Source of the DNA: Escherichia coli
GTDB taxonomy: Bacteria; Pseudomonadota; Gammaproteobacteria; Enterobacterales; Enterobacteriaceae
DNA length: 64,000 nucleotides
Assembly (NCBI RefSeq): GCF_003790525.1
Contig: NZ_CP033635.1
Strand: one strand, 5' to 3'
Each line of letters starts with the position of its first letter. Position 1 is the first letter of the stretch. Shown here piece after piece: positions 21,749-32,270 of the stretch. The notes under the pieces were generated by a model. The model saw only the letters and a program-made list of their open reading frames with translations. It was not told the DNA's origin and made no database searches. The translations under genes were made by a program, and so were the position numbers.

Positions 21749-23044
21749 ATGGCTATCAAATCACCTCCCGGACTTATTCCTTTATCACACTTATCGGGTG
21801 AGGAACTCCTGGCCCACCTGCGCTTTAACCGGGTTACCGATGAAAAAGGACGTTATCTGCCTTTTGATGAGTTGCAGTACCGCATCAAAAAAGGAGAAAA
21901 CGTCGATGTGGCGTGGACGCTTACCCGTCTGGCGCGCAACGCGGCGATCCAACGAATTAATTATTGCAATGAAGCGGGTGAACAGGCCGGATTCAACATT
22001 ACCCCGGTGATTGCAGAAGCGTGCGAGCTTGTCGACAAACGTGCTACCGCGCTGGCGCTGAAAGATCAGACTGAACGGTTACGCGGGGCCGGAGCCGAGT
22101 TAAGCCAGTTACGCCTGGAAGAGCCGATCACCAGCTCCCAGCTGGAGGGTGCGAATACTACAACGCTGGTGGCGAGAAAAATGCTGGAAACAGGGCGGTC
22201 GCCACGCACTGAAGACGAGCATATGATTGCGGGAAATGCCCGGCTGATGGCGGAAATTCCGCACTTACTCGCAGAACCGCTGACACCTGCGCTTATTCGC
22301 CAGTTACATGCCATTGGTATGGGTGGAATCAATGACGCGAAATATCGTCCGGGAGAATTTCGTGAAACAGATGATGTTGTGATCGCCGACTATGATGGCA
22401 ATATAGTGCATCAACCGCCCGCTGCGGCATTGTTACCGGAACGGCTGGAAAAAGTTTGCCAGTGGTTAAACAGCCATGAAGGGTATATTCATCCGTTGGT
22501 CCGTGCCTGCATTCTGCATTTTATGCTGGCCCATGAACATCCGTTTCGGGATGGCAACGGGCGCACCAGTCGGGCGCTGTTTTACTGGTATATGCTGAAA
22601 TCGGGCTACGATGTCTTTAAATATATTTCCATCAGCCGTTTGCTTCATGCTGCACCGGTCAAATATGCCGCCAGCTACCAGTACACTGAATCAGATGGTA
22701 TGGATCTGACTTATTTCCTTGAATATCAGGCGGGTGTCATTAAACGTGCTCTGCAAAACTGGCAGCAGCATATCGATGAAATTACACAACGAAGCGCAAA
22801 ACTCGATAGTGTGCTGTTTAGCTCTGGTGTGCTTAAACGCCTGAATCCGCGCCAGGTAACGCTCCTGAATGTGATGCTCGCCAATCCGGGGAAAGAGTAC
22901 ACAGTTGCTGAAATTAGCGCGAGCCTGGGCGTCTCTGATAATACGGCTCGAGCTGATTTACGGACAATTGTTAAAGAAGGGTTTGCGCAAGAGAAGAAAA
23001 TTAATGACCAGCAAGCCGTGTACTTCGCGCATTATCCGCTGTAA
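21749..23044 (+). CDS. Fic-domain protein (putative AMP-transferase) with N-terminal inhibitory motif and C-terminal HTH-like tail
   Basis: 431-aa ORF with ATG start; Fic motif [12 protein letters not shown] at nt 22538-22573; upstream SSQLEG matches the (S/T)xxxE(G/N) inhibitory motif; C-terminal segment [30 protein letters not shown] is HTH-like. Confidence 0.8.
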
Positions 23045-23151
23045 CCCTTGCCCGTAAATTCGTGATAGCCGTCGTAAAGCTGTTATCGACTGGCGAAGAT
23101 TTCGCCAGTCACGTCTACCCTTGTTATACCTCACACCGCAAGGAGACGATC

Positions 23152-24690
23152 ATGACCAATAATCCCCCTTCAGCACAGATTAAGCCCGGCGAGTATGGTT
23201 TCCCCCTCAAGTTAAAAGCCCGCTACGACAACTTTATTGGCGGCGAATGGGTAGCCCCTGCCGACGGCGAGTATTACCAGAACCTGACGCCGGTGACCGG
23301 ACAGCTGCTGTGCGAAGTGGCGTCTTCGGGCAAACGAGACATCGATCTGGCGCTGGATGCTGCGCACAAAGTGAAAGATAAATGGGCGCATACTTCGGTG
23401 CAGGATCGCGCGGCGATTCTGTTTAAGATTGCCGATCGGATGGAGCAGAACCTCGAACTGTTAGCGACCGCTGAAACCTGGGATAACGGCAAACCCATTC
23501 GCGAAACCAGTGCTGCTGATGTGCCGCTGGCGATTGACCATTTTCGCTATTTTGCCTCGTGTATTCGGGCGCAGGAAGGCGGTATTAGTGAAGTGGATAG
23601 CGAAACTGTGGCTTATCACTTCCACGAACCGTTAGGCGTGGTGGGGCAGATTATTCCGTGGAACTTCCCGCTGCTGATGGCGAGCTGGAAAATGGCTCCC
23701 GCGCTGGCGGCGGGCAACTGTGTGGTGCTGAAACCCGCACGTCTTACCCCGCTCTCAGTACTGCTGCTAATGGAAATCGTCGGTGATTTACTGCCGCCGG
23801 GCGTGGTGAACGTGGTCAACGGTGCGGGCGGAGAAATTGGCGAATATCTGGCGACCTCGAAACGCATCGCCAAAGTGGCGTTTACCGGCTCAACGGAAGT
23901 GGGCCAACAAATTATGCAGTACGCCACGCAAAACATTATTCCGGTGACGCTGGAGCTGGGCGGCAAATCCCCAAATATCTTCTTTGCTGATGTGATGGAT
24001 GAAGAAGATGCCTTTTTCGATAAAGCGCTGGAAGGCTTTGCACTGTTTGCCTTTAACCAGGGCGAAGTTTGCACCTGTCCAAGCCGTGCTTTAGTGCAGG
24101 AGTCTATCTACGAACGCTTTATGGAACGCGCCATCCGCCGTGTCGAAAGCATTCGCAGCGGTAACCCGCTCGACAGCGTGACGCAAATGGGGGCGCAGGT
24201 TTCGCACGGGCAATTGGAAACCATCCTCAACTACATTGATATTGGTAAAAAAGAGGGCGCAGACGTGCTCACCGGCGGGCGGCGCAAGCTGCTGGAAGGC
24301 GAACTGAAAGACGGCTACTACCTCGAACCGACGATTCTGTTTGGTCAGAATAATATGCGCGTGTTCCAGGAAGAAATTTTTGGTCCGGTGCTGGCGGTGA
24401 CCACCTTCAAAACGATGGAAGAAGCGCTGGAGCTGGCGAACGACACGCAATATGGCCTGGGCGCGGGTGTCTGGAGCCGCAACGGTAATCTGGCCTATAA
24501 GATGGGGCGCGGCATTCAGGCCGGGCGCGTGTGGACCAACTGTTATCACGCTTACCCGGCACATGCGGCGTTTGGCGGCTACAAACAGTCGGGCATCGGA
24601 CGCGAAACCCATAAGATGATGCTTGAGCATTACCAGCAAACCAAGTGCCTGCTGGTGAGCTACTCGGATAAACCGTTGGGGCTGTTCTGA
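23152..24690 (+). CDS. aldB: aldehyde dehydrogenase B
   Basis: 512-aa product from ATG at 23152 preceded by aaggag; ORF track extends upstream to 23062. Confidence 0.9.
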
Positions 24691-24721
24691 TATAAGAAGC
24701 TGGTCGCATTGGGTATTCATT

Positions 24722-24803
24722 GCCTGATGCGACGCTTACGCGTCTTATCATGCCTACGGGGACCTGACCGTAGGCCGGATAAGGCGTACACGCCGCATCC
24801 GGC
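24722..24803. repeat. REP/BIME elements downstream of aldB
   Basis: gcctgatgcgacgc... and ...gccggataaggcgtacacgccgcatccggc REP-type palindromes. Confidence 0.7.
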
Positions 24804-25233
24804 ATAAACAAAGCGCACGTTGTTACAATTTACGTTTTAAATCTACGTGCGCAATAACCCAGACTACGCCAACAGAAGTGCGTTTCTGGGGCGTGTTTTG
24901 CCAGGAGTTTAATCTCGCGTTTCGATGGTGAGCGGGCGAACCAGGCCATAAATCACCATTGGCGTTCCGAGGCCAATCAGCAATAAACGGTAGATAATTG
25001 AAGGTTTAATACGCTTAATCTGCATTGTGGATGTTTTACGGTTTTTATTCATAAATTTGGTCAATAGTTACATTATTTCAATATGATAAGCTTCGACCTA
25101 TTGAAAAGCCAGGCACACACTTCAGAAAGTATATAAAAAACCATATGTCGTTATATAAATAAGGAAATTGCACCGCATTATGGTATTTCATAATATGCGT
25201 TAATTGTTCTTTTTTATATTCTCTGAGGGAAAT

Positions 25234-25557
25234 ATGTTCCTGGATTATTTTGCACTGGGAGTGCTTATTTTTGTATTTCTGGTGATCTTCTATGGGATTA
25301 TTATTTTACATGATATTCCCTACCTGATTGCTAAAAAACGTAATCATCCACATGCCGACGCCATTCATGTTGCTGGTTGGGTAAGTCTTTTTACGTTACA
25401 TGTTATCTGGCCATTTTTGTGGATTTGGGCCACGCTTTACCGCCCGGAGCGTGGATGGGGAATGCAAAACCATGACTCCTCCGTTGTGCAACTACAACAG
25501 CGTATTGCCGGGCTGGAGAAACAGCTCGCTGACATCAAATCCTCTTCTGCCGAGTAA
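25234..25557 (+). CDS. yiaW: small inner-membrane protein, DUF3302 family
   Basis: 107-aa product from ATG at 25234 (track start 25204 is TTG); gaggga RBS; close paralog of the yibI product. Confidence 0.85.
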
Positions 25558-25562
25558 TACTT

Positions 25563-26699
25563 ATGGATTTACTGATTATTTTAACCTATGTGGCTTTCGC
25601 ATGGGCAATGTTTAAGATCTTTAAAATTCCTGTAAATAAATGGACCATTCCCACAGCGGCCCTGGGAGGCATATTTATTGTCAGCGGTCTAATTCTGTTA
25701 ATGAACTATAACCATCCGTATACCTTTAAAGCGCAAAAAGCGGTTATTTCTATTCCTGTTGTCCCACAGGTGACAGGCGTGGTGATCGAAGTGACGGACA
25801 AGAAAAATACGCTGATTAAAAAAGGTGAGGTGCTATTTCGACTGGACCCGACGCGTTATCAGGCGCGGGTGGATCGGCTGATGGCGGATATCGTTACCGC
25901 AGAACATAAACAGCGGGCGTTGGGCGCAGAGTTAGATGAGATGGCGGCGAATACTCAGCAGGCAAAGGCCACGCGGGATAAATTCGCTAAAGAGTATCAG
26001 CGTTACGCACGCGGCAGTCAGGCGAAAGTAAACCCGTTTTCAGAACGCGATATCGATGTGGCGCGGCAAAATTATCTGGCGCAGGAAGCCTCCGTGAAGT
26101 CATCGGCGGCGGAACAAAAACAGATCCTGAGCCAGCTGGATAGCCTGGTGTTGGGTGAACATTCTCAAATCGCCAGCCTGAAAGCGCAGCTCGCGGAAGC
26201 AAAATATAACCTTGAGCAGACGATAGTGCGTGCGCCGAGCGATGGTTATGTGACCCAGGTACTGATTCGTCCGGGTACCTATGCCGCGTCGCTGCCGCTA
26301 CGTCCGGTGATGGTGTTTATACCCGATCAGAAACGACAAATCGTGGCGCAGTTCCGTCAGAACTCCTTGCTGCGACTGGCTCCTGGCGACGATGCGGAAG
26401 TGGTGTTTAATGCTCTGCCAGGTAAGGTATTCAGCGGTAAGCTGGCAGCCATTAGTCCAGCCGTTCCCGGCGGAGCTTATCAGTCGACCGGCACCTTACA
26501 GACGTTAAACACAGCGCCGGGTTCAGATGGCGTTATCGCGACCATTGAACTGGATGAGCATACTGATTTGAGCGCATTACCAGACGGTATTTACGCCCAG
26601 GTGGCGGTCTACTCTGATCATTTCAGCCATGTCTCGGTGATGCGCAAAGTACTGTTACGCATGACCAGCTGGGTGCATTACCTTTATCTCGATCATTAA
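25563..26699 (+). CDS. yiaV: HlyD-family membrane fusion-like protein
   Basis: 378-aa ORF; close paralog of the yibH product, same length. Confidence 0.88.
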
Positions 26700-27670
26700 T
26701 CTTCGCTTTCCGCCGCTTGTTCAGGCCGCAGTTGCTGCGACTGAGCAAGCTGGTGGCGAATTTCACGCAGCATTTCATCCAGCACATACTGGACCCGCCA
26801 GGGCTGGTATTCCCGTTTACGGAAGATAGCCACCAGATCCAGCCACCATTCATACGGGTGCTGAAAGCAGGGCACCAGCGTGCCGTCTTGCAGGTCGCTC
26901 TGCACACTTTTGTCTGGCGCAAACACAATCCCCAGGTGATTTCGTGCCAGCTCCAGCGCAGATTGCGTGTTGTCGCAAACGTAATTTCCCTTCACGCGAT
27001 AATCCCGCACCTCTTTACTCCCGGCGACGTTGAAGCGCCAGATATTCGCGTCGTCGATCATCATCGAGTCGATCAAAATACAGGAGTGATGTTCGAGTTC
27101 GTCAGGACGGCTAATGGGATGTTTCTCAAGATAGCGCTGGCTGGCATAAGCGGTTACGGCATATTGGGTAATAAAACTGGCAACCAGCGATTCATCTTTT
27201 GGTTGGGCGTAGCTGATTAAAACATCACAATCATCGGGAAATTCGACGCCTTCATAAAAGGCATTACGCTCAAGATTGCAGGTTTTTAGCGATAAGGTGA
27301 TATCACCGATATCTTTAATTTTATCGATTACATGTTTGGATAAATAGGTAATTATGCCGGTTGGTGCATAGATAGTGACCCGACCACGTTTCTCATGCTT
27401 ATAATCTGCAATAAAATTATTAAGCTGCTCGTTTCTGTCCAGCATGTCGTTGATGTACGGTAACAGCACGGTGCCAAAAGGTGTGAGCATCAGCTGTCGG
27501 GTGGTTCGGTCAAAGACTTTTAAACCCACTTTTGATTCAAAATCAGCAAGATATTTGCTGACGTTGGCCTGTGCGATGCCAAGTACAGTCGCGGCATGGC
27601 TGATATTTTCACTGGCAGCGATTACCGAGATAATTTTTAACTCCCGGTACTTAAGTTGTAATTTTGTCAT
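26696..27670 (-). CDS. yiaU: LysR-family transcriptional regulator
   Basis: 324-aa ORF; N-terminal LysR-type HTH; stop codon overlaps the yiaV stop. Confidence 0.88.
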
Positions 27671-27793
27671 CGCAACAGCCCAATTATATATAATTTTATA
27701 TATTACTATATAAATATGAATCTTGCACCGGAGAAATTGTAAGCATTACTATGCCGACTCTTTTTTATCTTATTTTAAAATGGAATACCGGAC

Positions 27794-28534
27794 ATGTTAA
27801 TTAACCGCAATATTGTGGCGTTATTTGCGTTGCCTTTTATGGCAAGCGCAACTGCTTCTGAATTATCCATTGGTGCTGGTGCGGCTTATAATGAATCGCC
27901 TTATCGCGGTTATAATGAAAATACAAATGCAATTCCGCTGATTAGTTATGAAGGTGATTCTTTTTATGTTCGTCAGACCACGTTAGGTTTTATTCTGTCG
28001 CAAAGTGAAAAAAATGAACTTAGCCTGACCGCATCCTGGATGCCGCTGGAATTTGACCCTGCCGATAATGACGATTATGCCATGCAACAGCTTGATAAGC
28101 GTGATAGTACGGCTATGGCGGGGGTTGCCTGGTATCACCACGAGCGTTGGGGAACCGTGAAAGCCTCTGCGGCTGCGGACGTTCTGGATAACAGCAACGG
28201 CTGGGTGGGTGAGCTATCGGTATTCCACAAAATGCAGATAGGTCGCCTGTCGCTGACACCTGCGCTGGGCGTTCTCTATTATGACGAGAATTTCAGTGAC
28301 TATTACTATGGCATTTCAGAGAGTGAGTCCCGTCGTAGCGGTCTGGCAAGTTATTCCGCGCAGGATGCCTGGGTGCCCTATGTCAGCCTGACGGCAAAAT
28401 ACCCGATAGGAGAGCACGTCGTATTGATGGCGAGCGCCGGATACAGCGAGCTGCCGGAAGAGATTACCGACAGCCCGATGGTTGATCGTAATGAGAGTTT
28501 TACCTTTGTCACCGGCGTGAGCTGGCGTTTTTAA
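27794..28534 (+). CDS. yiaT: MipA/OmpV-family outer membrane protein
   Basis: 246-aa ORF with signal peptide; C-terminal ...VSWRF aromatic end typical of an OM beta-barrel. Confidence 0.85.
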   Translation: MLINRNIVALFALPFMASATASELSIGAGAAYNESPYRGYNENTNAIPLISYEGDSFYVRQTTLGFILSQSEKNELSLTASWMPLEFDPADNDDYAMQQLDKRDSTAMAGVAWYHHERWGTVKASAAADVLDNSNGWVGELSVFHKMQIGRLSLTPALGVLYYDENFSDYYYGISESESRRSGLASYSAQDAWVPYVSLTAKYPIGEHVVLMASAGYSELPEEITDSPMVDRNESFTFVTGVSWRF

Positions 28535-28548
28535 TTCACCGGTGGATG

Positions 28549-28666
28549 TCGGTGCGGCTGGCCTACGTTCTCGCACCGACTCGTGGGCCTGATAAGACGC
28601 GTTAAGCGCCGCATCAGGCAATGTGCACCCTACGGTGGATGCGGCGCGAGCGCCTTATCCAACCTA
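28549..28666. repeat. REP/BIME cluster between yiaT and the GH127 gene
   Basis: Palindrome gtcggtgcgg...ccgcaccgac plus REP-type units gcctgataagacgcgttaagcgccgcatcaggc and gatgcggcgcgagcgccttatcc. Confidence 0.65.
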
Positions 28667-30634
28667 CGGATGGCAATGCTTTTCCTCATTCACCCAGATC
28701 CGCATTTCGCCTTCACCCCGGTTAGCCCAGCTAAACCACGGGATAAATGTCAGAGTTTGCGGCTGGCGTTTGGCTGGGGCATAGTCGTAATGCCACAGCG
28801 GTTGCTGCTCTGGATTGCTCTGTTCATACCGGTAACCCGGTGCCTGGATTAAGATCTTATGGCGGAACAATCCCTTGCCTTCAAATGTCGTAAATGGCGC
28901 ATCGGCGGGCAGCCACAGGTTATGCAGTGACTCGCCGTTGTCGGCCTGTTCCAGGCAATACACCAGCGGGCCGCGCTGAATCGCCACTTTTCCGGCGACG
29001 TGACGCACCAGCGGGTTACCGTAAACGCGACGTACCGGCATTGGCAACGTCAGATTCAGCGTGTCGCCCTCCTGCCATTCGCGGGTAATGTGCAAATACC
29101 CTTTACGAATATCCTGCTCGACCTCTTCCCCATTCAATGTAATCTGCGGCTGTGTGCACCAGTCCGGCAGACGTAAAGCCAGCGTATGACGCACCGGCTG
29201 GGGCGATTCAACCGCAATTGTCACCTGTTCCTGCCACGGATAGTTTCCGCTAACCCGCAGGCGCAACGTGCCATTTTCTACCGGCACTTCCATGCTGTTT
29301 CCTGCGTATATGTTGATATACAACGCATCTTCACGCGGCGTGTAGAGATAATGACCAATCGAGGTTAGCACGCGGGCGATATTTGGCGGACAACAAGCGC
29401 AACCAAACCAACGCTGGCGGATCGGCTTAACGTGATCGTAGATATGGTTGAATTTCAGCGATTTTGGATGTACTTCCAGCGGATTCACATAGAAGAAATG
29501 TTTGCCATCCAGCGCCATGCCGCCGAGCACGGTGTTGTACAGTGCGCGCTCCATCACATCGGCATATTGACTGTCGCCTTCCATTTCCAGCATTCGCCGG
29601 GCGAACATCATCAGGCCGATGGAAGCACAGCTTTCGGCGTATACCGTGTCATTCGGCAGATCGTAATCGCTGCTGAACGCTTCACCGCTGCTCTGTGAGC
29701 CAATGCCGCCGGTAATATATAACTGACGCTGGGCCATATTGTTCCACAGCCGCAAGCAATCCTGACGCTTGCTTTCATCGTGACTTAAACGCGCGAGATG
29801 CGCGACGCCGGTCATCAGGTAGACAAAACGTACCGCGTGACCAATGGCGGTTTGCTGCTGTGCGATGGGCAAATGTGCCTGGCTGTAGGCTTTGTCTTTC
29901 ACCATCCACGCCGGGCCGTAGGTGTGCCAGTGCGAGGTCTGCCCGCGCTTTTCATATTCCTGGTCGTAATAGTGCGGTTGCGCACCACGCTGTTCGACAA
30001 AATAGTTCGTCAGCGCCAGGTAGCGCGGCTCTTCGGTCACTTCATACAGGCGCATTAGTGCCAGTTCAATTTCCGGGTGACCAGGATAACCGTGTAACTT
30101 ACTTTCATCTGGACCAAATACGCTGTCGATATGATCGGTCAGACGGCAAACCACTTCCAGCAAGCGCCGCTTGCCCGTAGCCTGGAAGAAGGCGACTCCG
30201 GCTTCAATCAGATGACCCGCGCAGTAAAGTTCATGACACTCCGCCAGATTGCTCCAGCGTTCTTCGGGCGCTTTTACCGTAAAGTAAGTATTGAGATAGC
30301 CATCTTCACACTGGGCGGAGGCGATCAGTTCAATCACCTCGTCGGCGGTTTTTTCCAGTTCGGCGTCCGGCTTCTGGCACAGCGACCAGGCTACCGCTTC
30401 CAGCCATTTGGCGACGTCGCTGTCCTGAAACACCATCCCGTAAAATTCACCGTCTTGCAGTCCTGCGGCAATGCGAAAGTTTTCAATCGCATGGCTGGGT
30501 TCCGCTTCTGGGATACGATCGTTCAAGGCGTCCCACTGATAAGGAATCACCACATCGCGGACCAGTTGTTGGTACTGACCGAGGAACGGATCGCTGACCG
30601 TCAGTTTATGCAGATCGACTTCCGAAATGTTCAT
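28664..30634 (-). CDS. glycoside hydrolase family 127-like protein (DUF1680; putative beta-L-arabinofuranosidase-type)
   Basis: About 656 aa from ATG at 30634 preceded by taaggag; no signal peptide; conserved Cys-rich C-terminal region; family assignment from memory. Confidence 0.6.
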   Translation of the reverse strand: MNISEVDLHKLTVSDPFLGQYQQLVRDVVIPYQWDALNDRIPEAEPSHAIENFRIAAGLQDGEFYGMVFQDSDVAKWLEAVAWSLCQKPDAELEKTADEVIELIASAQCEDGYLNTYFTVKAPEERWSNLAECHELYCAGHLIEAGVAFFQATGKRRLLEVVCRLTDHIDSVFGPDESKLHGYPGHPEIELALMRLYEVTEEPRYLALTNYFVEQRGAQPHYYDQEYEKRGQTSHWHTYGPAWMVKDKAYSQAHLPIAQQQTAIGHAVRFVYLMTGVAHLARLSHDESKRQDCLRLWNNMAQRQLYITGGIGSQSSGEAFSSDYDLPNDTVYAESCASIGLMMFARRMLEMEGDSQYADVMERALYNTVLGGMALDGKHFFYVNPLEVHPKSLKFNHIYDHVKPIRQRWFGCACCPPNIARVLTSIGHYLYTPREDALYINIYAGNSMEVPVENGTLRLRVSGNYPWQEQVTIAVESPQPVRHTLALRLPDWCTQPQITLNGEEVEQDIRKGYLHITREWQEGDTLNLTLPMPVRRVYGNPLVRHVAGKVAIQRGPLVYCLEQADNGESLHNLWLPADAPFTTFEGKGLFRHKILIQAPGYRYEQSNPEQQPLWHYDYAPAKRQPQTLTFIPWFSWANRGEGEMRIWVNEEKHCHP

Positions 30635-30644
30635 CTTGTGCTCC

Positions 30645-32045
30645 TTAAGGCTGTACATGACGCTGACGCAGGTCGCTAGCAATGCGTGACATCATAGGGT
30701 TATTGAGTTTGCAAAAGCGGATCGCCATCGCCAGCAGCAGGTGGAACAGCGCAGGCAGCAATGTTTCCATTGCTGTGATCCCGCCAAGCGAACTGGCGGT
30801 CTGGTTTTCCACGCCTGGCTGGTAGGCGACAAAAATAAACAGCAGGCTGATGATCCCGGCGCTGGAGGCCCAGGCCAGCTTGATGAAAAACAGATTGAAG
30901 GCGAAGTTCATGCCGGAAGAACGTACGCGGGTTTTCCACTCGCCGTAGTCATCGGCAAAGGCCATCAATGAGAAGTGCAATGGCAATGTGAAGCCAAGAA
31001 TCACGCCATTACCGAGGATCACCGCCAGCCACAGCGTTTGATAAGCCGGGCTGGAGGGCAGGAACCACATCAACACCGCCAGCGCAGCGAGGAGCAGGTT
31101 GGTGTAGTAATAAATTTTGACGGTATCGAAACGCCGCGTTAACGGGCTGACAATCACCGAGCCGATAATGGAGGCGAAGGTGACCATAGTGAAGAACAGC
31201 GACGTGTAGCCCGTACTGCCTTGTAAGACGTAGGTAATGAAGTACATATACCCACCGCCGCGAATATTAAAGACGTTAATCAGCAGGAAAGACATGACCA
31301 GCATCAGCAGCAGTTGGTCGTTGTTCCGCAGCCCGGCAAGATGTTCGCGCAGGGTAAATTTCCCCATTGTGGAGAGTGGCACCCGTTCACGAACCCAGAA
31401 GAAACAGCACAGGAACATCACCACAGCGATGGCGCACAGCACGCCGACGCCCAGTTGATAGCCGCGCGCGGCATTACCCTGACCGAAGAGATCTACCATC
31501 CACGGTAAGCCTACCGAAACCAGAAATCCCGCCACGCCGCAGAGAACGAATCGCCAGGACTGGCAGGAGATCACTTCATTGTGGCGGGTGGTCATGGTGT
31601 TGATCAGCGCGCAGTACGGCACGTTGATGGCGGTATAACCGACTGAAAGGAGCAGGTAAGTGCCGAACGCCCAGGCGATTTTTACTCCCATGCTGGCATC
31701 TGGCACGGTGAACGTCAGGATGCCGATAATGCCGATGGGAATGGCAATCCACAACTGCCACGGACGAAAGCGCCCCCAGCGACTTTGCGTCCGGTCGGCA
31801 ATGACGCCCATCACCGGGTCGGAGATGGCATCAAACACGCGCAGTGCAATAAACAGCGTGCCGACCAGCGCCGGAGTTAAGCCAAAAACGTCGGTGTAGA
31901 AAAAGGTGAGAAAGTTCATGATCAGGCAAGTTATTACGGTGCCGCCTGCGTCACCCAGGCCGTAGCCTATTTTTTCCCGTACAGATAACGCATCGTCAAT
32001 TTTACCTTTAGCGATATCAGCGGTAGTAATCGGTGTAGAGGTCAT
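30645..32045 (-). CDS. GPH-family (glycoside-pentoside-hexuronide) cation symporter, MFS superfamily
   Basis: 466-aa polytopic membrane ORF; N-terminal GPH-type signature ...[25 protein letters not shown]. Confidence 0.75.
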
Positions 32046-32270
32046 AGATATTCCTCGTGAATAGGGAGCAATTTTTAGTTTTATTGCAATGACATGATTA
32101 ATTCTGCCGTGAACGGGAATATCAACAAGGCGAGAAAAGAGTAAAAAAAGGTGACGATTCCGACCTGAATTTAAAAGTGTGAATTGGATCAGGTGAAATT
32201 AATGTTTTTGATTAATAATCAAAAGGTAATGTGTTTAATCATTAATGAATAAGCGGAAAATTACATATCA

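What the first reader, a model, noticed from the sequence alone, without database searches (positions are those of the whole stretch)
26694..26699. Convergent yiaV and yiaU share overlapping stop codons
The yiaV stop is TAA at 26697-26699 and the yiaU stop on the minus strand is the reverse complement of 26696-26698. The two convergent genes therefore overlap, leaving no room for terminators and implying transcriptional interference between the LysR regulator and the HlyD-like gene.
Basis: seen in the sequence. Interest (0 to 1): 0.2.

Follow-up and report, generated by a model that had tools for sequence, protein, structure and literature searches.

The report
Ordinary four-base stop-codon overlap, yiaV/yiaU
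Two E. coli genes that face each other, yiaV and yiaU, really do share a 4-base TTAA in which each strand reads a stop codon, but this is the commonest known kind of tail-to-tail gene overlap, it is already annotated, and a conserved RNA hairpin hidden in the last codons of yiaU shows there is room for a transcript-end signal after all.

Summary
yiaV (+, 25563-26699) stops at TAA 26697-26699. yiaU (-, 26696-27670) stops at the reverse complement of 26696-26698. The genes share TTAA at 26696-26699.

The window is E. coli SMS-3-5. RefSeq annotates the same overlap there and in K-12. The junction is at least 95% identical in all 3,774 complete E. coli genomes that carry the locus.

The overlap is ordinary. 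TTAA, CTAA, CTAG and TTAG are the published modal class of convergent overlap, and E. coli has 58 convergent overlaps. The yiaU-yiaV pair is already listed in the 2025 E. coli "excludome".

Comparative data explain the origin. YiaV's C-terminus is fixed. YiaU's last ~13 residues vary freely, and the ORF runs until the complement of the neighbour's stop. A TAA or TAG neighbour gives 4 nt; a TGA neighbour gives 7 or 31 nt. This holds whether the neighbour is yiaV or aldB.

"No room for terminators" is not supported. A strong stem-loop at 26711-26755 starts 12 nt after the yiaV stop, inside yiaU's tail codons. It is conserved by covariation: 12 of 16 pairs changed on both sides. It has no U-tract, so it resembles a Rho-type 3'-end protective hairpin. 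Published data place a Rho termination region antisense in yiaV, 617 nt past the yiaU stop.

Interference is plausible but untested. Low interest.

The parts
25234..25557 (+). yiaW (DUF3302 inner-membrane protein), the first gene of the yiaW-yiaV pair that runs towards yiaU
   Evidence: Pfam DUF3302, E 1.8e-43; RefSeq annotation
25563..26699 (+). yiaV, a HlyD-family membrane-fusion protein of 378 aa. Its C-terminus ...W(V/M)HYLYLDH is nearly invariant (one V/M difference), and the 378-aa length is the same in orthologues and in yibH paralogues
26696..26699 (.). Shared tetramer TTAA. The + strand reads TAA (yiaV stop, 26697-26699). The - strand reads TAA (yiaU stop, complement of 26696-26698)
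   Evidence: the class of tetramers is described in PMC2174442
26693..26695 (-). Back-up stop TGA in the yiaU frame, directly after its TAA. It is the complement of TCA, which spans the last two yiaV codons gaT CAt. It becomes the working yiaU stop (7-nt overlap) in Citrobacter strains whose yiaV stop is TGA
26696..27670 (-). yiaU (also called LpsR), a LysR-type regulator of 324 aa. HTH is residues 9-66; the substrate domain is residues 95-302
   Evidence: function from PMC9068703
26699..26737 (-). Poorly constrained C-terminal tail of YiaU, residues ~312-324 ([14 protein letters not shown]). Homologues end anywhere between 309 and 339 aa with unrelated tail sequences
26711..26755 (+). Conserved G+C-rich stem-loop (core 26715-26750, extended form 26702-26760) in the yiaV-sense RNA. 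It starts 12 nt after the yiaV stop and has no U-tract. It is encoded inside yiaU codons ~306-320
   Evidence: Energy and rank. Covariation. Presence or absence by lineage:
26700..27050 (+). Mildly C-rich, G-poor stretch of the yiaV-sense strand downstream of the hairpin (GC skew -0.14 to -0.20 in parts). This is a possible Rho loading region and is inference only
   Evidence: the expectation comes from PMC6061677
26079..26079 (-). Published Rho termination region on the yiaU-sense strand, antisense within yiaV. It is K-12 coordinate 3753583 (+), mapped onto the window, 617 nt past the yiaU stop
   Evidence: PMC7815308 supplementary file 2: reads up/down 40/19 without bicyclomycin and 151/357 with it; Rho score 4.98; p 1.9e-8. 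Coordinates were mapped through L001
27794..28534 (+). yiaT (MipA-family outer-membrane protein), divergent from yiaU and its reported regulatory target. It is the fourth gene of the accessory yiaT-yiaU-yiaV-yiaW block

Best explanation
This is a genuine, conserved and ordinary tail-to-tail overlap of the minimal 4-nt type.

Shown: YiaV's C-terminus and stop position are fixed. YiaU's last ~13 residues are evolutionarily free. yiaU in effect has no stop of its own. Its frame stays open until it meets the reverse complement of the neighbour's end. yiaV ends in His-stop (CAY TAA or TAG), so the opposite strand reads TAA or TAG in yiaU's frame, giving 4 nt.

Where the neighbour's stop is TGA, the barrier disappears. 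yiaU then runs on to the next stop: 7 nt in three Citrobacter strains and 31 nt into aldB in one Enterobacter-like lineage. One base change in the neighbour's stop therefore changes both genes' ends.

Shown: transcript-end information is not lost. It is written into yiaU's dispensable tail codons as a stable stem-loop that starts 12 nt after the yiaV stop. Covariation keeps it in every lineage where yiaU has a close convergent neighbour, whether yiaV or aldB. It is absent in the two lineages where it does not.

Inferred: the stem-loop acts in the incoming (yiaV-sense) RNA. It would block 3'-to-5' exonucleases and mark the 3' end of a Rho-terminated yiaWV transcript, limiting antisense transcription into yiaU.

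From published data: yiaU-sense transcription that runs into antisense yiaV is ended by Rho about 0.6 kb downstream. The two transcripts therefore do overlap, but in a bounded way.
For: - Overlap and annotation.
- Population conservation.
- Orthologous junctions: 4 nt (TTAA or CTAA) in Escherichia species, C. amalonaticus and Pseudocitrobacter. 7 nt where the yiaV stop is TGA. A 48-nt and a 16-nt gap in C. braakii and C. portucalensis, where a CAA-to-TAA change inside the hairpin arm truncates YiaU to 317 or 316 aa.
- yiaU against aldB: 4 nt when the aldB stop is TAG or TAA, 31 nt when it is TGA, and 0 nt gap once.
- The YiaU family is conserved only to about ...EIRxQ(L/I)AQ. Lengths run from 309 to 339 aa.
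- Hairpin strength: -27.5 kcal/mol, 3rd of 25,582 windows; z -3.5 in 71 nt.
- Covariation on a gapless, codon-anchored alignment that was not fitted to the structure: 74.6% of cells paired against 29-53% when slid; 12 of 16 pairs changed on both sides; 0 of 500 shuffles reach this. The Escherichia/Citrobacter set agrees.
- Amino acids in the two arms swap as complements (Ala/Glu in E. coli against Glu/Ala in ERZ27292795). Only nucleic-acid pairing explains that.
- The yiaV-sense strand folds better in 9 of 10 compared lineages (equal in C. braakii), and all 9 in-helix wobble positions favour it.
- The hairpin is absent in C. sedlakii (co-directional neighbour, best -7.9) and in Serratia (328-nt gap, best -10.8).
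- Literature: the 4-nt convergent class and embedded terminators (PMC2174442). Stable stem-loops without U-tracts end Rho-dependent transcripts, with rut sites just downstream (PMC6061677). A Rho region lies antisense in yiaV (PMC7815308). The pair is in the excludome (PMC12288877).
Against: - No mapped 3' end at the hairpin was found. yiaV and yiaU do not appear among the Term-seq 3' ends of PMC7815308. Other 3'-end datasets were not held as text. Both genes are weakly expressed in laboratory media, so this absence says little.
- The strand assignment is only suggestive. This region is C/A-rich on the yiaU-sense strand. The background already gives 71% of one-strand-only wobbles to the yiaV-sense strand, so 9 of 9 corresponds to p of about 0.05.
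- The lineages are related and few, roughly 6-8 independent ones.
- In Kluyvera the hairpin after yiaU is intergenic and its U-run is on the yiaU-sense side. The ancestral element may therefore have served yiaU.
- The hairpin stays with yiaU whichever partner is present. That also fits a function for yiaU itself.
Confidence: 0.75

Rival explanations
1. The overlap removes all termination signals, so convergent RNA polymerases and complementary 3' ends make yiaU and yiaWV repress each other. This would be a functional convergent excludon linking the LysR regulator to the HlyD-like gene.
For: Overlapping transcription of the pair was detected in at least 50% of 58 MG1655 RNA-seq sets (PMC12288877). 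There is no U-tract terminator on either strand at the junction. yiaU-sense RNA extends about 0.6 kb into antisense yiaV before Rho acts.
Against: A conserved stem-loop sits right after the yiaV stop, so signals are not absent. Any pair with overlapping CDSs is scored as an excludon almost by definition. No reciprocal expression data exist. yiaV is not mentioned in the yiaU-knockout study. The same yiaU tail and hairpin sit against aldB in other genera, so the arrangement is not specific to a yiaU-yiaV regulatory link. About 30% of E. coli genomes lack the whole block.
Confidence: 0.2
2. The hairpin is a bidirectional, collision-positioning terminator element that serves both genes. Nascent stem-loops on both strands would make converging polymerases meet at a fixed point between the genes.
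For: The stem is nearly palindromic and folds on both strands: -33.3 against -30.3 kcal/mol in 71 nt. A nascent stem-loop is required for positioned head-on collisions at convergent E. coli pairs (bioRxiv 10.1101/2022.10.23.513370). The element is present only where a close convergent partner exists.
Against: There is no A-tract or U-tract flanking the stem. On the yiaU-sense strand the hairpin lies upstream of yiaU's own stop codon. Ending there would give non-stop mRNAs, and translating ribosomes would melt the hairpin. The wobble and energy asymmetry favour one strand. yiaU-sense read-through to a Rho region 617 nt further on argues that yiaU transcripts do not stop at the hairpin.
Confidence: 0.2
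3. The overlap and the hairpin are neutral by-products. Deletion bias squeezed out the spacer, and the palindrome only reflects the Gln/Ala-rich tail sequence.
For: Convergent overlaps fit a simple stop-codon-mutation model (PMC2174442). The tail sequence of YiaU is unconstrained. Spacing varies between lineages: -31, -7, -4, 0, +16, +31 and +48 nt.
Against: This is probably true for the overlap itself but not for the hairpin. 12 of 16 pairs show double changes, and no shuffle reaches that. The hairpin persists while the encoded amino acids change completely. It is lost exactly where no convergent partner is near.
Confidence: 0.1
4. Annotation or sequencing artefact: one of the two stops is really earlier.
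For: None was found.
Against: Stop codons are unambiguous, unlike starts. The junction is identical in K-12, SMS-3-5 and about 3,600 other genomes. YiaV ends at the same residue in all orthologues and paralogues.
Confidence: 0.01

Closest known systems
Minimal 4-nt convergent (tail-to-tail) stop/stop overlaps: TTAA, CTAA, CTAG, TTAG (Lillo & Krakauer 2007, PMC2174442; Fukuda et al. 2003, as cited there)
   Same: The geometry and the tetramer (TTAA) are identical. The origin by 3' extension after loss of a stop fits what the YiaU tails show. As in 19 of the 58 E. coli convergent overlaps, a termination-type hairpin lies inside the partner's coding sequence.
   Different: Nothing essential differs. 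[quoted passage not shown] This holds across lineages and with two different neighbours.
Convergent excludons (ExcludonFinder, PMC12288877)
   Same: Neighbouring opposite-strand genes with overlapping transcripts. This very pair is listed among the 165 convergent excludons of MG1655.
   Different: The defining functional outcome has not been shown for this pair. That outcome is mutually exclusive expression and RNase III processing.
Protective 3' stem-loops of Rho-terminated mRNAs (Dar & Sorek 2018, PMC6061677)
   Same: An energetically stable stem-loop shortly after the stop codon. It is not followed by a U-run. A mildly C-rich sequence lies downstream.
   Different: It lies inside another gene's coding region rather than in a spacer. 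No 3' end or Rho dependence has been measured for yiaV.
Bidirectional terminators and collision-driven termination at convergent pairs (Ju et al. 2019, as cited in PMC7815308; Wang et al., bioRxiv 10.1101/2022.10.23.513370)
   Same: A near-palindromic stem-loop between convergent genes that can fold in both transcripts.
   Different: It lacks the flanking A-tract and U-tract. It sits upstream of yiaU's own stop. The thermodynamics are asymmetric.

Membership tests
4-nt convergent stop/stop overlap | Two genes on opposite strands whose 3' ends overlap | tested here: met
   yiaV + ends at 26699 and yiaU - ends at 26696
4-nt convergent stop/stop overlap | The overlap is one of CTAA, TTAA, CTAG or TTAG and holds both stop codons | tested here: met
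   TTAA at 26696-26699; the definition is in PMC2174442
4-nt convergent stop/stop overlap | Both ORFs are real genes, not mispredictions | tested here: met
   Pfam domains; orthologues in several genera; a published knockout phenotype and ChIP-exo for YiaU
Convergent excludon | Transcripts of the two genes overlap in vivo | not testable with these tools
   Reported in the literature only: PMC12288877 Table 1; a Rho region antisense in yiaV
Convergent excludon | Mutually exclusive expression, or RNase III processing of the duplex | not testable with these tools
   No data were found. yiaV is not mentioned in the yiaU-knockout study
Intrinsic (Rho-independent) terminator | G+C-rich stem-loop | tested here: met
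   26711-26755, -27.5 kcal/mol
Intrinsic (Rho-independent) terminator | A U-tract directly 3' of the stem | tested here: not met
   The + strand continues GAATTTCACGCA and the - strand continues GGAAAGCGAAGA. The terminator scan reports nothing at the junction
Rho-type protective 3' stem-loop (Dar & Sorek) | A stable stem-loop not followed by a U-rich sequence, shortly downstream of the stop | tested here: met
   It starts 12 nt after the yiaV stop (3 nt in the extended form)
Rho-type protective 3' stem-loop (Dar & Sorek) | A steady-state RNA 3' end immediately downstream of the stem | not testable with these tools
   Not listed in the PMC7815308 Term-seq tables. Other datasets were not held as text
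Rho-type protective 3' stem-loop (Dar & Sorek) | A C-rich, G-poor rut region just downstream | tested here: inconclusive
   GC skew is -0.14 to -0.20 at 26700-26850 and 26900-27050, which is only modest
Bidirectional terminator | A stem flanked by an A-tract upstream and a U-tract downstream, so that both strands see hairpin plus U-run | tested here: not met
   No such tracts on either side
Any curated RNA family (Rfam 15) | A match to a covariance model | tested here: not met
   No match with E up to 1 in 26400-27000

The most novel reading that the evidence does not exclude
The stem-loop in yiaU's last codons is a dual-coded element under stronger selection than the protein tail it encodes. 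It would be a U-tract-less 3'-end or insulator hairpin that stops whatever transcript converges on yiaU: yiaWV in Escherichia and Citrobacter, aldB in Enterobacter-type genomes. It has been kept by compensatory change across these genera, even at the price of truncating YiaU in C. braakii. The shared stop codon would be only its by-product.
Probability: 0.45. Interest if true: 0.3.

Novelty: already known. Interest (0 to 1): 0.15.

Why it matters
It matters little in itself. The overlap is annotated. Its class has been described since the early 2000s. The pair is already catalogued as a transcriptional overlap.

The locus has some value as a worked example of two general points:

1. A gene with an unconstrained C-terminal tail can borrow the reverse complement of its neighbour's stop codon. 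The neighbour's choice of TAA/TAG or TGA then sets the length of the overlap.
2. Overlapping coding sequences do not imply missing transcript-end signals, because a conserved hairpin can be dual-coded inside dispensable codons.

For anyone engineering or deleting yiaU (LpsR), removing its 3' end also removes the likely 3' structure of the yiaWV mRNA. A change to the yiaV stop also changes YiaU.

Tried and rejected
- **Consensus terminator scan, 24500-29000.** Nothing at the junction. The nearest + strand hit (26889-26904) is weak, with 6 pairs.
- **Rfam scan, 26400-27000.** No family matched.
- **Experimental 3' ends at the hairpin.** PMC7815308 lists only the Rho region antisense in yiaV. The one '37529' hit in PMC12207403 belongs to Streptomyces. 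PMC6061677, PMC9023263, PMC8848933, PMC4161252 and PMC12288877 have no supplementary files held as text.
- **Automatic hairpin picker.** My first script demanded a single unbranched shape. It missed the hairpins of Escherichia sp. MOD1-EC7003, C. portucalensis and three metagenomic lineages. I replaced it with plain sliding-window folding and a fixed-diagonal count.
- **Wobble asymmetry as proof of strand.** Downgraded after a background count showed a 71% compositional bias in the same direction.
- **A divergent yiaU/yiaV allele in the ~30% of E. coli genomes without a megablast match.** Rejected. With sensitive blastn those genomes match only through the paralogue yibH. An example genome has aldB directly facing the GH127 gene, with the whole yiaW-yiaV-yiaU-yiaT block absent.
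- **Homology between the hairpin after E. coli aldB and the Enterobacter hairpin.** Rejected. E. coli aldB is followed by REP-type repeats.
- **Not run.** Structure prediction and fold searches were judged irrelevant to the question.

Full report
**1. The observation**

The window is a stretch of the E. coli SMS-3-5 chromosome, read in reverse complement (100% identity). At 26691-26700 the + strand reads gatcatTAAt.

- yiaV occupies 25563-26699 (+) and ends ...Asp-His-TAA, with the stop at 26697-26699.
- yiaU occupies 26696-27670 (-) and ends ...Glu-Asp-TAA, with the stop being the complement of 26696-26698.
- The two coding sequences share the palindromic tetramer TTAA at 26696-26699.

RefSeq annotates exactly this in SMS-3-5 and in K-12 MG1655. 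Pfam confirms the gene identities:

- YiaV is a HlyD/CusB-type membrane-fusion protein.
- YiaU is a LysR regulator.
- YiaW is DUF3302.
- YiaT is MipA-like.

A 121-nt stretch over the junction is at least 99% identical in 3,624 genomes and 95-99% identical in another 150. That covers all 3,774 complete E. coli genomes that have the locus.

**2. How unusual it is**

It is not unusual. Four nucleotides is the shortest overlap two convergent stop codons can form. [quoted passage not shown] They show a jump at length 4 in the distribution of convergent overlaps:

- 1,890 convergent overlaps in 58 species.
- 1,218 of these are 5 nt or longer, so about a third are 4 nt.
- E. coli has 58 convergent overlaps.

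In this window, RefSeq annotation gives ten convergent pairs. One is in the hok region. Of the nine ordinary pairs, yiaU/yiaV is the only one that overlaps, and the others are 31-277 nt apart.

The specific pair yiaU-yiaV is already listed among the 165 convergent "excludons" of MG1655. That means overlapping transcripts in at least half of 58 RNA-seq data sets (PMC12288877).

**3. Why the overlap exists**

I collected orthologous junctions from a scan of species-representative genomes and from contigs encoding YiaU homologues.

YiaV always has 378 residues and ends ...W(V/M)HYLYLDH, in orthologues and in the yibH paralogues. The YiaU family is conserved only to about ...EIRxQ(L/I)AQ. After that the tails differ in sequence, and total length runs from 309 to 339 residues. 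The tail is therefore free to vary, and the yiaU frame runs until it meets a stop.

The stop it meets is set by the neighbour:

| Neighbour and its stop | Lineages | Result |
|---|---|---|
| yiaV, CAY TAA | Escherichia species, C. amalonaticus, Pseudocitrobacter | 4-nt overlap; opposite strand reads TAA or TAG in yiaU's frame |
| yiaV, TGA | Three Citrobacter strains | yiaU's TAA becomes CAA; frame ends one codon later at the back-up TGA (complement of 26693-26695 here); 7-nt overlap |
| aldB, TAG or TAA | Enterobacter cloacae, one related metagenomic lineage (no yiaWV present) | 4-nt overlap |
| aldB, TGA | One Enterobacter-like lineage | 31-nt overlap |
| aldB | One lineage | The genes abut, gap 0 |
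| yiaV | C. braakii, C. portucalensis | YiaU truncated to 317 or 316 residues; spacer of 48 or 16 nt |

So yiaU borrows its stop from the complement of its neighbour's end. The 4-nt case is simply what happens when that neighbour uses TAA or TAG after a pyrimidine.

**4. Is there "no room for terminators"?**

The consensus scan finds no hairpin-plus-U-run at the junction. Folding does find a strong stem-loop on the + strand at 26711-26755:

- The core is 26715-26750, GCTTGTTCAGGCCGCAGTTGCTGCGACTGAGCAAGC.
- It starts 12 nt after the yiaV stop.
- It lies inside yiaU codons ~306-320.
- At -27.5 kcal/mol it is the third most stable of 25,582 windows of 45 nt on both strands of the 64 kb.
- The others at the top of that list that I checked against sequence or annotation (66-110, 24741-24785, 28606-28650) are intergenic hairpins or REP-type repeats.
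- In 71 nt it folds at -33.3 kcal/mol, z = -3.5.

The hairpin is present, in the same codon register, in every lineage where yiaU has a close convergent neighbour, whether yiaV or aldB. Energies are -20 to -29 kcal/mol, although the sequences and the encoded amino acids differ.

I built a gapless alignment anchored on the conserved RVQ codons, so it was not fitted to the structure. Results:

- 74.6% of cells pair, against 29-53% when the partner column is slid.
- 12 of 16 pairs carry changes on both sides.
- None of 500 shuffles reaches any of the five measures.

The narrower Escherichia/Citrobacter alignment agrees. The amino acids in the two arms even swap as complements, Ala...Glu in E. coli against Glu...Ala in ERZ27292795. 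Only nucleic-acid pairing explains that.

In C. braakii, one compensatory pair (G-C to A-U) is the very change that turns yiaU's CAA into TAA. The stem was kept while the protein tail was lost.

The hairpin is absent in two lineages:

- C. sedlakii, where a co-directional gene follows yiaU (best -7.9 kcal/mol).
- Serratia, where the next convergent gene is 328 nt away (best -10.8 kcal/mol).

Kluyvera has a separate intergenic hairpin.

**5. Which transcript uses the hairpin, and how**

This part is inference. Three things point to the incoming, yiaV-sense RNA:

- The stem starts a few nucleotides after the neighbour's stop, but upstream of yiaU's own stop. In the yiaU-sense RNA, ribosomes would melt it, and ending there would give non-stop mRNA.
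- The yiaV-sense strand is more stable in 9 of 10 compared lineages and equal in C. braakii.
- All nine in-helix wobble positions are G-U on that strand and C-A on the other.

The last point is weakened by composition. The background already gives 71% in that direction, so p is about 0.05.

There is no U-tract, so the element is not a canonical intrinsic terminator. It matches the stable, U-less stem-loops that Dar and Sorek found at the steady-state 3' ends of Rho-terminated E. coli mRNAs, with rut sites just downstream (PMC6061677). The + strand beyond the hairpin is mildly C-rich, with GC skew down to -0.20.

For the other direction there is direct published evidence. Adams et al. list a Rho termination region at K-12 coordinate 3753583 (+), classed as antisense to yiaV, with Rho score 4.98 and p 1.9e-8. 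This maps to window position ~26079 on the - strand, 617 nt past the yiaU stop (with mapping).

A collision-positioning, bidirectional role for the stem-loop (bioRxiv 10.1101/2022.10.23.513370) cannot be excluded.

**6. Verdict on the interpretation**

- Overlapping transcription is real, from the literature.
- Absence of end signals is not supported.
- Regulatory interference between the LysR regulator and the HlyD-like gene is untested.

The YiaU (LpsR) study reports yiaT, waa genes and adeP as affected, and yiaV is not mentioned in it (PMC9068703). The same tail-plus-hairpin faces aldB in other genera. About 30% of complete E. coli genomes lack the whole yiaW-yiaV-yiaU-yiaT block. Both facts argue against a dedicated yiaU-yiaV regulatory device.

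**7. Novelty and score**

The overlap is already annotated and belongs to a well-described class. The pair is already catalogued. The hairpin dual-coded in yiaU's tail appears not to have been described for this locus. No Rfam family matches it, and it is not mentioned in the papers retrieved. It is nevertheless a member of known kinds: embedded terminators in convergent overlaps, and Rho-type protective stem-loops.

Interest is low, 0.15.

Noticed in passing
window 2581-4082 (+): yibI-yibH, a paralogous DUF3302 plus HlyD pair, lies in the same window about 22 kb from yiaW-yiaV. The yibH protein is ~77% identical to YiaV. Its convergent neighbour is an HTH-domain gene 155 nt away, so there is no overlap there.
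   Followed up: partly
window 25234-28534 (the yiaW-yiaV-yiaU-yiaT block): The four-gene block is accessory. 3,774 of 5,426 complete E. coli genomes have it. The rest match only through yibH. In the urine isolate C8 (L068), aldB directly faces the GH127 gene with the block absent.
   Followed up: partly
L067 (E. coli OkiPb01684) 4364-5823: An IS1A element truncates yiaV. Everything from the yiaV 3' part through yiaU and yiaT to part of yiaL is missing. This looks like a strain-specific IS-mediated deletion.
   Followed up: no
window 24696-24800 (+): aldB is followed by REP/BIME-type palindromic repeats (two hairpins of about -23 and -26 kcal/mol). These are unrelated in sequence to the hairpin that follows aldB inside yiaU in Enterobacter-type genomes.
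   Followed up: partly
window 66-110: This is the most stable 45-nt hairpin in the window: -34.6 kcal/mol on the - strand and -29.5 on the + strand. It lies in the mtlA-mtlD intergenic spacer.
   Followed up: no
window 28664-32100 compared with K-12 (L001 5354-5650): SMS-3-5 has intact GH127 glycosidase, MFS transporter and AraC-type regulator genes between yiaT and sgbE. K-12 has only the short pseudogenes ysaD and ysaC there, probably remnants of a deletion.
   Followed up: no
L053 (457-nt contig in a Terrisporobacter mayombei assembly, coverage 0.72): The contig is 100% identical to the E. coli yiaV/yiaU junction. This is almost certainly E. coli contamination of that assembly.
   Followed up: no
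L058, L059, L065 (Enterobacter, Pseudocitrobacter and a related lineage): A hicA/hicB toxin-antitoxin pair sits between the GH127 gene and yiaT in these genera. It is absent from the E. coli window.
   Followed up: no
window 21750-23050 and 6370-12200 (record 3986926-3988221 and 3993788-4003460): Several annotated SMS-3-5 genes look like strain-variable insertions: a Fic-family gene between aldB and yiaY, and an S6 autotransporter peptidase plus a chaperone-usher fimbrial operon between yibF and yibH. The Fic gene is also present in strain C8 but absent in strain OkiPb01684.
   Followed up: no
window 24909-25064 (-): A 47-aa hypothetical protein is annotated on the opposite strand, between aldB and yiaW. 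It forms another convergent pair with aldB at a 218-nt gap. Nothing is known about it.
   Followed up: no
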